This document shows, piece by piece, positions 9,960 to 51,500 of a stretch of DNA of 64,000 bases (positions are counted from its first letter, which is position 1; each line of letters starts with the position of its first letter). Position numbers and translations under genes: made by a program. A model generated the notes under the pieces. That model saw only the letters and a list, made by a program, of their open reading frames with translations, was not told the origin of the DNA and did not search any database. This stretch comes from Neocallimastix sp. 'constans' (Eukaryota), in NCBI GenBank assembly GCA_050613775.1, contig JBODTK010000105.1, positions 248,001 to 312,000 of the forward strand. Reading direction: 5' to 3'.

Positions 9960-9973
9960 GATTAAGAGTCTCA
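9960..9973 (+). other. Primer-binding site GATTAAGAGTCTCA, complementary to the tRNA-Lys(CUU) anticodon arm
   Basis: Directly abuts the 5' LTR. The same motif abuts the 5' LTR at 22417-22430(-), 33882-33895(-), 34479-34492(+, G>A), 48281-48294(-) and 49178-49191(+). Confidence 0.85.
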
Positions 9974-10148
9974 GTGACTCTATAGTGTTTTTAAGATACA
10001 TTTATGTGTGAAAAATATATTGAGGAATTTAGTAATTAGTTATAATTAGTGTTGTCGATAATTGAGTAATCGACAAAATAAATAAATAAAACTTTTATAA
10101 ATAATAAAAAATAATAATAAACAAAAGAAAAGTAAACAAAAAAAAAAA

Positions 10149-46200: not shown

Positions 46201-48521
46201 TTTTGCATTGTTTACAAATGTGCTTATTTTGGGTATGATCCTTAACATAATTTTCTAATTCCTTATTTACAAAATGGCCAAGTCTGGCATGCCAAAGGTT
46301 ATGTTCAATATGATTTACTAGCAATCTATACCCGTCAACATAATTTACATCATTGTTAGTTTGTAAATCTTTTGATTTCATTACAAATAAACCTTCATTG
46401 TTTGAGTTGAGATTAATAATATATTTATTATTCTTTGTGATAGTTAGTACCTTCTTATTTCTAATTTTTCTAATGTTTAGTTCAAAACCCATATTTAATA
46501 TATGGTTTGGCGAAATTAAATTATTTTTTATATTCGATGCGAAATAAACATTTGGTATGGAAAAAATCTTATTTTTATATTCCCCTTTGTACATTCCAAC
46601 ATATTTTATAATTTCAGTAGTTCCATTAGCATAAGTAATTGTTCTTTCTTCAATTTCCTTAACATTTGTTAATTTATTACAGTCTTTTATTAAATTGATA
46701 GCAGTTCCACTATCAATAATCCAAGAGGTAGAGGATATATTCGGATTTTTGGAGGTATCTATATCTTCGAATTTTCTCTTCTTGTTGTGGCCTTTTATGA
46801 AATCATTTTTTGCGAGGGAACAAGAGACATAATTAGAATTAAAATTTAATGATTTTATAACATCTGAATCAGAATCAGAATGTTGATTAGTGTGTTTTTT
46901 AATTTTATTTTCAACATTACATGATTTAAGTATTTTATTATATTTTTTAGTTTTTAACTTTAATTTTCTTTTTCTACCTTTATTTATCTTATTATTACTT
47001 GAATTGCTTTGGTTGGTTTTAATTTTATAGCAATTCTTAGTTATGTGTCCATATTTTTCACATATGTAACAATAGTTGTCTTCTATATGGACCTTTTCTC
47101 TTTGATTTTTATTTTTATCAAAGTTGAAGTTGTATGGTAACTTACCCATTTGGACTCTGTTTATATTGTTATTATATTTATCGAAATTATTATTATCAGT
47201 TAAATTCTTTATTGTTACCATCAGCGAATTTAATTTGTACATTTTTTTCTTTAAATTCGTCATAAGAATTGCAATCAACCAAATAGACAAATAAAGGATG
47301 TATTCTGGTATTTATAAGTTCCTTAAAAATGTGAGTTATTTTATAAATATCATCTAGTGATTCTTTATTTAATTTATCACATTCTGTTTTTCTAAGGTTA
47401 TATAATTCGTCCATTTTATGTATATAGCTTAAAAAATCATTATCTTCAATTTTTAAGCATTTAATTTGTTTATTGATATTATCAATATAGGATTGACCTG
47501 TTTGATAATATCTTTCTTTTAATCTACTCATCATTTCAAACGCTGTTTTACATCCTTTTAGTACATCATTTCCCTCTTCATCAAGACTAGATTCAATTAT
47601 TGACTGGGTTTTATTATCCTTTTTAATTTCCAGTTGATTCATTGATTTAGTTTCCTTTTGGACTTCAATGAAATTTATTAAATCCGTTGAAATAAGGTGA
47701 TGTACTAAAGGTTTATACCATTGTTGAAAATTAATAGAAGTTAAATGAAAGTTTTTAATGTGAAAAGGAACATTATTTGTTCCTTCATCACCTTTAGTAT
47801 TTACATTGATACTATTATTGTCTTCATTATTACTTCTTATTTTCATATTTTCAATGGTTTTTATAAATGCGTTTGTTATTTGTTCAAGATTATTATGATT
47901 ATTGTTGTTTATAGCTTCTAAAAGTTTTTGTAAACCTTTATTTACCAGTTCAGAATTATCCAAGGTTTCTTTTTCTCTTGAATTATTACTGGTACTAGCT
48001 ATATTGTTTGATGAGTTAGAGAACTCATTATTTTTAGAATCCATGTTTTATGTTTATTTAATTTATAAAATTTAAATTTTGATTAATAATTTATTAATTT
48101 TAATTGTTTTAAAATTTTAAATCCTTTGTTTAAATTTTAATCAAAATTTTTAATTTTTAATTTTATAATGTAAATTTCAATATTTAAATTTTGAAATTAA
48201 TTTAGTGATTTCAAAGTAAAGTCTTTTGTAAAACTAAATTATATAACCAAATAATACAATAATACCTTACATAGAGTCGTTGAGACTCTTAATCTATTAA
48301 GTTTAGGTTTGGAATACACAATAAATATTAATAAAAATTCTTAATATAATTTCAGATGAACTTATGTTTTTATTTGTTTACTTTTTTATTTATTTATTTC
48401 TTACTTCTAAGATTATTATTTTTTTTAATAGTTATATAAATTTATATTTACAATGTAATTGATAATGTATTAAAATGTATATTTAGTATTTTGTATCTAA
48501 ACACTGCCACAATATTTAACA
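43284..48521 (-). mobile_element. Ty1/Copia retrotransposon E, full length, inserted in the 3' LTR of Copia D
   Basis: LTRs 43284-43517 and 48295-48521 (TG..TA). TSD CATAT at 43279-43283 and 48522-48526. PBS 48281-48294. PPT AGGGGGAA at 43518-43525. Confidence 0.95.
43710..48044 (-). pseudogene. gag-pol: Copia E gag-pol, frameshifted
   Basis: CYICEKYGHITKNC, WIIDSGTA, WHARLGH, ELVHTDV, QIDIKAAYL, LYVDDIL, YSDSDWG, ADPLTK. Confidence 0.9.
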
Positions 48522-51500
48522 CATATAAATATAACTTTACATTAATAAATTAATGTACGGAGTTCTTTAATATAAATAAATAAATAGAATATTAATTTTT
48601 TATAAACATTCGCGAGTTTCTACCGATAGTCGGTTAATAATAATAATAATAATAATAATAATAATAATAATAATAATCGGCTGGCACAATTATTAATTTA
48701 GTTTTAATTAATAATTTTTATTTATTTTTAATTAATAAAGAATTCTCAATTTAATAATTCATGAATAATAAAATATATATAATAAAATATTATTATATAA
48801 TAATATGATTTACATGAATTTCTTATATACACGTGTATAAATTTACAATTACATAAATGTGTAACATTTAAATAAACTTATGAATATATTTATATTTTTA
48901 TGTTTTGTATATAACTAGTTATATTTTAAATATTTAATTAATAAATATTTATTTAAATTTATTTATTTTATTTGTTTATTTAAATAAAATATTGAATTAA
49001 ATTATATTAAATATCTTGTAATTACAAATTAAAATATAAATTAATATGTATCTAGAACAAGCCACAAATAAATATAAAAACATGTAATTTTATCTGTACT
49101 TTAAATCTTTGTTAACCATTTATATAACATTTGCGTTATATATCTAATTATTAATAAATAAATATTAAACAATAATAGATTAAGAGTCTCAATCCTCTAT
49201 AATAATAACAAAGCTTTAAATTTAAAAATCGATTTTAACAAAGTATTAAGATGGCCTATCAGTTTAACTTAGCTAAGGACCAACATCTTCGTGGTGCATC
49301 CAATTTTTCCACAAGGTATTTCCTTATCATGACTGCAGCTAGGTGATATGGAATGGAAGAATTCATTGAAGAAGATGTTATCTCTCACCTGAAGGATAAT
49401 AACTATATGTTTAATCCTATTGGAGAATCTAAGACGGTAAAAGCTATCCTGAAGATTATTGAGGAATTACAATTAAATCATGGAGAAAATGTAAACTACA
49501 ATGAAGTGTTTACTCAAAACCGAAATAGAATTATTGCTAAAGTAGAAGAGAAAGACTCTCAGTTAATGCTTATGGTGATTCAAAACATTGAAGACAAAAT
49601 ATTAAGGGAAGTTAGTAGAATGAAGAAAACATTCACAATTATGGAAAAGCTAACTTCAAAATTCGGTAATATGAATAATGATACTGAATACTGGCTCAAG
49701 AAATTGCGAAAACTTAAGGCAAATGACCTTAACCAAGTAATGAAGATGGCTGATAGCGTAAATGAAATATTCGGTGAAATGGAAGATGCCGGAGTAAATT
49801 TGACTGAAAGGGAGAAATTAAAGTACATGTTCAATATTTTACCGAATGACTTTAAAAAACATTATAGATGTAACCTTAGAAACTACCGCCAGACAATTAT
49901 ATGAAATATAAAAGATAGAATTTCAGCTAGATCATATCTAGAAAATTGGGAAAATACAATGGATGAACATGATGATCATGATGATCCAATGGATATAGAT
50001 CTAATTGAAAAACGGTATAGAAATAAAAACTATCATAAAGGAAAAGGTTTTATTAAGAAAATAAACAGAAATAATATCAAAACTAACAAAAATTTAAATT
50101 GTCATATTTGTGAGATAAGAGCACATCTCATAAAAGATTGTAAATACAATATGAAAGCAAGAGAAAACAAAAAGGAAGGGAGGCAACAATCACTCTACCA
50201 GAAAAACCATAAAAATGAAGAAAATTAAAATCATTTGGTTTAGTGGAAAAAATAACTTCCAAACATGAAGAAAGTGACAGCGAAAGAGATGATAATTTTG
50301 AAGACATCAAACCATTATGTGAACCACATATTAATGATGCTTTGATAATTGAATCAATAAATGAACCATTTAATATAGATAATAATGAAAAATCTGTAAA
50401 CATAATTGAAAGAAATATAGAAAGTAACGAAACAATTGAATGATATTATGATAGTGGAGCTTACGAACGTGTAACTAATGATAAAAACCTTTTGAAAGAT
50501 TATAAAGAAGATTTTGTACAACTAAGATGTGCAGACAATACTACTTTAGACTTTGAAGGATATGGTAGTTGTGAATTTACCATAAACAACTACCATATAA
50601 AATTAAACAAAGTGTTATATTCAAAAAAGATACATAAAAACTTGATAAGTGCCATCGAATTCGCAAAAATAGGTATAACATTCGTTATTGAGCCATTAAG
50701 TCAAAAAAAAGTAAAATTGACTATATCTGAATGTGATAAAAATGTTATTGGAACGTTTCTATCAAATGATTTCAATCAATTTAAAATAAACACAAAAAGT
50801 ACAATAAATAATCAAAATATTTTATTATTAGATGATTTAGGACAAAACAGTCTAGAAATATGGTATAGAAGAATGGGCCATCAATATATAAGAAATATTT
50901 CTAAACATTTAGAATTACACGAGATCAAGATCCCAAAATGTAAAGAATGTAAAGTAGTAAAAATGAAGCATTCCCCACATAATGGGAACAATCCTAAATC
51001 AAACAAGATACTTGAAGTTATACACTCTGACATTTCGGGGCCATATAACAGTTCTATTAATGATAAAAAATATTTTATAACTTTCTTAGACGAATATTCA
51101 TGGAAAGTATGGCTATTCACATTAAAATCTAAAGCTGAAGCGCCAGACATTATAATTGATTTTCTCAAATATCTTAACAATCAATATGAAAACCATAAAG
51201 TTAAAATATTTAAATCTGATGGTGGTAAAGAATATAAAAATAAGAAAATAAGAAGATACTGTAAAGATAATGGAATTGGAAAATCATTCTCTCCACTATA
51301 TCGTCCAGAAAATAATGGAAAAACCGAAAGGATAAATCAAACAATAAAAAACACAGCTAAAACTTTATTATTTTGGGCAAAATTATCTGAAAATTTCTGG
51401 GAATATGCAGTCAGACATGCGGCTTATTAGTATAATAAGATTTCTCATGAAGGAAATAATAATTTAATACCTGATGAAGTCATATCAGGAAAAAGTATTT

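What the first reader, a model, noticed from the sequence alone, without database searches (positions are those of the whole stretch)
9960..49191. Six LTR families share a PBS complementary to the anticodon arm of tRNA-Lys(CUU): a Lys half-tRNA priming system
Seen: GATTAAGAGTCTCA directly abuts the 5' LTR of Copia A (9960), the non-coding element (22430,-), C (33895,-), D (34479, first G>A), E (48294,-) and B (49178), although their LTRs and Gags diverge. It lacks the TGG of a 3'-CCA-type PBS. Known: its complement TGAGACTCTTAATC matches positions 27-40 of eukaryotic tRNA-Lys(CUU). Drosophila copia and yeast Ty5 prime from a 5' fragment of initiator tRNA-Met ending in the same register, and Candida Tca2 uses an internal tRNA-Arg site. 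Inference: this whole Copia radiation primes from a tRNA-Lys(CUU) 5' half cut after C40. I do not recall this primer being described, but cannot check. The neighbouring Gypsy uses a normal tRNA-Ala 3'-end PBS, which serves as an internal control.
Basis: partly seen in the sequence, partly recalled or inferred. Interest (0 to 1): 0.88.

Follow-up and report, generated by a model that had tools for sequence, protein, structure and literature searches.

The report
Gut-fungus Copia half-tRNA-Lys primer site
Six families of Copia jumping genes, most likely from an anaerobic gut fungus, carry right after their left repeat a 14-base site matching the middle of a lysine tRNA, so they likely start DNA copying from a cut half of that tRNA; the trick and this very site are already in print for other fungi, so the find is sound but fairly ordinary.

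Summary
The 14-mer is exact at 5 of the 6 named sites and has one mismatch at D. It abuts the 5' LTR with no spacer. It is the complement of positions 27-40 of tRNA-Lys(CUU) genes fetched here, the register of half-tRNA-Met sites. The RTs form one well-supported clade with Orpinomyces and Neocallimastix proteins. Two unrelated AT-rich contigs carry the same LTR-PBS junction (L085, L189). Half-tRNA-Lys priming is the best reading (0.85).

The novelty claim fails. Donnart et al. [quoted passage not shown] Kojima 2024 (PMC10886601) lists anticodon-loop priming by four to five other tRNAs in fungi. This scan also noted it on another genome (e1-7153294).

What remains new is modest: the host lineage, a clade that does not look like FunCo1, and leaders that fold back on the PBS or pair further with the tRNA D arm.

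Not shown: the host's own tRNA gene, the primer itself, and the cut site. Family D lacks the base opposite C40.

The parts
9595..9959 (+). Copia A 5' LTR (TG...CA)
   Evidence: TSD CATTT on both sides
9960..9973 (+). PBS of A, exact 14-mer, followed by a 6-nt inverted copy of part of it
10149..15776 (+). A gag-pol, one frame with a stop inside the protease at 11634-11636 in this copy
   Evidence: the stop is absent from the contigs of 4 of 4 runs
15771..16135 (+). Copia A 3' LTR, preceded by a PPT
20474..22626 (-). non-coding LTR element NC (LTRs 22626-22431 and 20669-20474, PPT, TSD ATTAT); likely non-autonomous
   Evidence: no ORF of 200 aa or more
22417..22430 (-). PBS of NC, exact, with a 9-bp fold-back just downstream
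22920..29028 (-). Copia B' (same family as B, RT 92%); end of 5' LTR and PBS lost by deletion
29124..34123 (-). Copia C (LTRs 34123-33896 and 29352-29124, TA...TA ends, TSD ATTAT)
33882..33895 (-). PBS of C, exact; an 8-nt complement of the tRNA D loop lies 17 nt downstream
34189..34478 (+). Copia D 5' LTR; its 3' LTR is split by E (piece at 48522-48639)
34479..34492 (+). PBS of D, first base A in place of G
42836..42854 (-). Gypsy PBS of the ordinary TGG 3'-end type (internal control); tRNA identity not confirmed
43284..48521 (-). Copia E (LTRs 48521-48295 and 43517-43284, TG...TA, TSD ATATG)
48281..48294 (-). PBS of E, exact, with a 6-bp fold-back
49178..49191 (+). PBS of B, exact; 5' LTR ends at 49177

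Best explanation
The 14-mer abuts the 5' LTR of six Copia families and is complementary to positions 27-40 of tRNA-Lys(CUU), so it is likely a primer-binding site on which a 5' half of the host's tRNA-Lys(CUU), likely cut at or next to C40, would prime minus-strand DNA synthesis as in copia and Ty5. Shown: position, zero spacer, complementarity, register, and conservation across one RT clade that holds named Neocallimastigomycota proteins. Inferred: the host is an anaerobic gut fungus; its tRNA has this arm; a nuclease makes the half (host RNase P is proposed for Ty5 in PMC5371799); RT extends the 3'-OH; NC borrows the proteins in trans. Inferred, weaker: the leader after the PBS helps by pairing with the tRNA D arm, or by folding back on the PBS until the primer invades.
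For:: 5 exact matches and 1 near match against 0.37 expected; 6 of 6 at the LTR edge; tool-fetched tRNA-Lys(CUU) genes (L002, L072, L077) have this arm at 27-40; among 600 tRNA calls in 314 loci the best 3'-end match to the motif is 8 of 14; 14 of 80 Copia-bearing contigs carry a tRNA-iMet half site in the same register with zero spacer, where base 41 (C) cannot pair with the LTR's A; two independent AT-rich contigs (L085, RT 39% to A; L189) have LTR-CA followed by the same 14-mer; the L085 leader pairs on in register with tRNA positions about 10-24 (duplex energy reached by 0.4-1% of shuffles); C and B also beat shuffles (0-0.8%, 4-5%). PBS bearers lie on both sides of the root of a clade with support 1.0 (FastTree, 64 of 184 tips) and SH-aLRT 100 (quick IQ-TREE, 19 of 53 rows); same site reported for FunCo1.
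Against: The host tRNA-Lys(CUU) gene was not found: 0 of 11 loci look fungal, and that pattern demanded the arm, so it does not test the host. Family D: the window copy and an identical contig have A opposite C40, and a related contig has T; the letter in the most abundant relative was not shown. Extra D-arm pairing was not significant for A, D or E, and for NC only with 1 of 2 tRNAs. No primer, small RNA or strong-stop DNA was observed. The 3' end could be U41 rather than C40.
Confidence: 0.85

Rival explanations
1. The same tRNA primes, but the 3' end is not fixed at C40: it ends at U41 (pairing with the LTR's terminal A) or at U39.
For: U41 is complementary to the terminal A in all six. D copies have A or T at the first PBS base. 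Donnart's FunCo1 motif is written from the second base. The last four bases of the 5' and 3' LTR differ in NC and C, whose LTRs are otherwise nearly identical.
Against: G opposite C40 is kept in 7 of 8 junctions (five window families, L085, L189). The Met-half controls start at 40 in 14 of 14. PMC1181622 states nucleotide 40 for hemiviruses.
Confidence: 0.15
2. Self-priming of the Tf1/TAR type, or a tRNA-free hairpin site like the CHS of fungal GalEa: the motif pairs with the element's own RNA.
For: Leaders fold back on the PBS more than shuffles do (summed inverted repeat 43 against 33.5, p about 0.001). NC has a 9-nt complement at its LTR end and a 12-nt one about 360 nt downstream.
Against: The longest LTR match to the motif's complement is 6 nt or less in 6 of 7 LTRs. 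The motif stays fixed while LTRs and fold-back partners differ, which points to an outside partner. It matches tRNA-Lys at 14 of 14.
Confidence: 0.04
3. The primer is the 3' end of another RNA, or the motif is a conserved protein-binding or packaging signal that resembles the tRNA by chance.
For: The host's RNA set was not available, so other RNAs were not excluded.
Against: No TGG. The best tRNA 3'-end match is 8 of 14 among 600 calls. The register equals that of the Met-half controls. L085 pairs on into the D arm.
Confidence: 0.04

Closest known systems
FunCo1 clade of fungal Copia (Donnart et al. 2017, PMC5445492; abstract and passages read, 6 supplements searched by term, 2 pptx files not readable)
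   Same: Fungal Copia whose PBS (ATTAAGAGTCT) is complementary to an internal region of tRNA-Lys; that 11-mer lies within the 14-mer here.
   Different: FunCo1 is described as almost restricted to Pezizomycotina. These elements group with Orpinomyces and Neocallimastix proteins, and no named Pezizomycotina protein appeared among 120 RT hits or 69 integrase hits. In the passages read the paper does not call the primer a half-tRNA or give its register.
Hemivirus-type Pseudoviridae: Drosophila copia and 1731, yeast Ty5, Volvox Osser (PMC8515867 whole text; PMC1181622, PMC5371799, PMC10275265 passages)
   Same: Copia domain order; PBS against the anticodon arm ending at nucleotide 40; zero spacer.
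   Different: Their primer is tRNA-iMet, here tRNA-Lys(CUU). Theirs was shown by experiment for copia and Ty5 (as cited in those papers); here it is inferred.
Rust-fungus Copia and Helenus TRIMs (Kojima 2024, PMC10886601, passages); plant Bianca (PMC6317226, passages); Candida Tca elements (PMC4139406, passages)
   Same: Anticodon-loop PBS for non-Met tRNAs (Tyr, Ile, Asp, Asn in rusts; Ile in Bianca; internal Arg(UCU) in Candida, with short and extensive forms); non-autonomous partners sharing the PBS, as NC does here.
   Different: A different tRNA and host lineage. Lys appears in the Kojima passages only as a 3'-end primer of animal elements.

Membership tests
Ty1/Copia LTR retrotransposon (Pseudoviridae) | gag-PR-IN-RT-RH order with Copia RT (RVT_2) | tested here: met
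   for A, B/B', C and E; D keeps gag-PR only; NC is non-coding
Ty1/Copia LTR retrotransposon (Pseudoviridae) | two LTRs, PPT, 5-bp TSD | tested here: met
   for A, NC, C, E and B'; most LTR ends are TA rather than CA
Half-tRNA-primed Copia (Hemivirus sense) | PBS next to the 5' LTR, complementary to the anticodon arm ending at nucleotide 40, no TGG | tested here: met
   5 of 6 exact, D mismatched at the base opposite 40
Half-tRNA-primed Copia (Hemivirus sense) | the host encodes the matching tRNA | tested here: inconclusive
   no genome; searches gave no fungal tRNA-Lys gene
Half-tRNA-primed Copia (Hemivirus sense) | tRNA fragment joined to minus strong-stop DNA | not testable with these tools
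   needs particles or small-RNA data; all runs laid were contigs
FunCo1 | PBS ATTAAGAGTCT | tested here: met
FunCo1 | RT groups with FunCo1 reference elements | tested here: inconclusive
   no FunCo1 reference could be fetched; named nearest hits outside the clade are mostly plant and arthropod at 33-38% RT identity, from a capped candidate list
FunCo1 | host in Pezizomycotina | tested here: not met
   20.9% GC, holders are feces metagenomes, relatives are named Orpinomyces and Neocallimastix; the host itself is inferred
Self-priming elements (Tf1, TAR) | 10 nt or more in the 5' LTR complementary to the PBS | tested here: not met
   5-6 nt in 6 of 7 LTRs; 9 nt in NC, at the LTR's very end

The most novel reading that the evidence does not exclude
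Anaerobic gut fungi carry their own Copia clade that switched to a tRNA-Lys(CUU) half independently of FunCo1, and its leaders form a switch: a hairpin hides the PBS until the half-tRNA invades and pairs on through its D arm.
Probability: 0.3. Interest if true: 0.45.

Novelty: new member of a known kind. Interest (0 to 1): 0.24.

Why it matters
It extends a known primer type to an early-diverging fungal lineage where, in the searches run here, no PBS description was found. The 14-mer is a practical tag for finding 5' LTR ends in very AT-rich genomes, where LTRs often end in TA and standard 3'-end PBS filters fail. If the clade is not FunCo1, two fungal lineages chose the same Lys(CUU) half independently. 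That bears on how primers are switched and how the half is made. It does not change the accepted mechanism.

Tried and rejected
Whole genome: none is held. ARAGORN finds no tRNA in the window.

Host tRNA hunt. The metagenome scan gave 11 loci: 9 with an animal-type gene and 2 with another type that I read as ciliate (many long frames under code 6, none of 120 aa under the standard code). Searches of gut archaeal MAGs that hold fungal-like contigs gave no tRNA. The host tRNA therefore stays untested.

FunCo1 references. Viral-contig scans gave no LTR element with the site (71 loci; 123 loci), and RT scans gave 0 and 1 locus. Ten MAGs with Copia contigs had no match. The protein atlas gave no answer.

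Other results that led nowhere. L185 and L186 are chance matches without LTR context. L086 lacks its 5' LTR and is uninformative. The careful IQ-TREE run did not finish; the quick tree is used. The sister group of the clade is unresolved (support 0.37). The primary Ty5 and Tca2 papers were not held; they are cited through reviews. An RNA-library contig covers A from 10140 to 12200, but contigs cannot show transcription, so it is not used. Self-priming and a 3'-end primer were rejected.

Full report
Observation. The 14-mer occurs 7 times at up to 2 mismatches, against 0.37 by chance. The spacer is zero in 6 of 6. The window is 20.9% GC and is a nest of Copia copies with one Gypsy and a MULE. 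B' has lost its PBS by deletion. The Gypsy has an ordinary TGG site at 42854-42836; its tRNA was not identified with certainty.

Which tRNA, which register. tRNA-Lys(CUU) genes fetched by the scans (L002, L072, L077) have the exact complement at positions 27-40, the whole 5' stem strand, the loop and two bases of the 3' strand. These loci were picked by the motif, so they fix the register, not the host's sequence. Among 600 tRNA calls in 314 loci no 3' end matches better than 8 of 14. As a control, 14 of 80 Copia-bearing contigs (79, which kept 80 of 136 hits, plus L083) carry a tRNA-iMet half site. It starts at position 40 directly after the LTR, and base 41 cannot pair there. Five of the 80 have the iMet 3'-end site and one (L085) has the Lys site; most lack a 5' end. 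Several of these sites lie behind the RT in collapsed assemblies, so their link to that RT is presumed. For Lys, U41 also pairs with the LTR's last A, so 40 against 41 cannot be told from sequence.

Host and clade. Runs holding element A are mostly feces metagenomes. The best RT hits include five Orpinomyces gene models at 43-48%, and the cluster of hit P0026 holds Neocallimastix proteins. In a FastTree of 184 RT-RH sequences (484 columns; rows with short coverage, among them P0072, were left out) A, B, B', C, E, L085 and four Orpinomyces models form a 64-tip clade with support 1.0. A quick IQ-TREE on 53 of these rows gives SH-aLRT 100 for the same group. Site bearers lie on both sides of its first split, so the site is likely ancestral to the clade. 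The sister group is unresolved. Outside the window, L085 (LTR TG...CA, RT 39% to A) and L189 have the same junction; both are AT-rich contigs binned into gut archaeal genomes. In one search, 4 of 314 genomes matched, two of them by chance.

Leader structure (my addition, post hoc). Over 8 leaders, the 30 nt after the site hold longer inverted copies of the PBS than shuffles (43 against 33.5, p about 0.001) and longer complements of the tRNA D arm (39 against 30.0, p about 0.001). Thirteen Met-half leaders show no fold-back (44 against 49.4). L085 pairs in register down to about position 10; C and B also beat shuffles; A, D and E do not. The two signals share the word CTCT, the leaders are related, and the shuffles are mononucleotide, so this is a lead. 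Loose ends in calls of other copies show the same fold-back words.

Against. The host tRNA gene was not found. In family D an identical contig confirms the A, and a related contig has T at that base; the letter in the most abundant relative was not shown. No variant inside A's site was among the 40 rows shown for four runs, with 97 rows not shown. Self-priming is unlikely: LTR complements are 6 nt or less in 6 of 7.

Mechanism. Likely, the genomic RNA binds a 5' half of tRNA-Lys(CUU) over 27-40, sometimes further into the D arm. RT would extend the 3'-OH at about C40 into U5, and plus-strand copying of the primer would restore the site. NC would be mobilised in trans. Only position, complementarity and conservation are shown. 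How the half is made is open; host RNase P is stated for Ty5 in PMC5371799 (passage). That pairing stops at 27 because of a methylated base 26 is my recalled guess and was not tested.

What is known. Donnart et al. [quoted passage not shown] It was the only paper on Copia among 3 that hold the motif with 'retrotransposon' (the other two seen as listings). Two of its supplements (pptx, one with the family tree) could not be read and may bear on clade membership. Half-tRNA priming defines Hemivirus (PMC8515867) and starts at nucleotide 40 (PMC1181622). Non-Met halves are reported for Bianca (PMC6317226), Candida (PMC4139406) and rust fungi (PMC10886601). Searches for a description in anaerobic fungi found none (listings). 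Earlier notes of this scan report half-tRNA sites for Lys(CUU), Lys(UUU), Asn and Tyr on other genomes; I had read Donnart before that call.

Verdict. A real feature with a well-supported mechanism, working like copia and Ty5 and sharing its site with FunCo1. Membership of FunCo1 is not established: the host criterion is not met and the tree test could not be run. New member of a known kind; interest 0.24.

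Noticed in passing
L189:538-2103: LTR-like end, the same 14-mer, a 52-bp tandem duplication that includes it, about 23 residues of a Copia-like Gag start, then in frame a Gypsy-type zinc knuckle, protease and RVT_1. Probably a deletion or assembly chimera of nested elements; a Gypsy primed by a half tRNA would be unusual (my estimate about 5%).
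   Followed up: partly
window 20450-34190 and 48640-48675: NC, B', C and D all sit in (TAA)n microsatellites (TSD ATTAT in three), which suggests a target preference.
   Followed up: no
window LTR ends 22431, 33896, 34478, 48295, 49177: Five of six 5' LTRs end in TA, not CA; C also starts with TA. E and B' have TA at the integrated 3' end with an intact TSD. In NC and C the two LTRs differ within the last four bases although otherwise nearly identical.
   Followed up: partly
window 11634-11636: The stop that splits A's gag-pol inside the protease is absent from the contigs of 4 of 4 runs, so it is copy-specific or a sequencing error, not a read-through signal.
   Followed up: yes
window 22058-22071: Inside NC, about 360 nt after its PBS, a 12-nt stretch that could pair with the PBS in the element's RNA.
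   Followed up: no
window 42820-42890: The Gypsy's U5 end and PBS region form an inverted repeat that could hide its PBS (read by eye).
   Followed up: no
window 51669-54151 and 59635-60384: An element with inverted repeats of about 790 bp (91% alike) interrupts Copia B, with part of the pol between them; a third arm lies at 59635-60384. Possibly a foldback or MULE-type DNA transposon.
   Followed up: no
L083-L162: Many GTDB prokaryote genomes hold eukaryotic Copia contigs as contamination: 136 hits.
   Followed up: no
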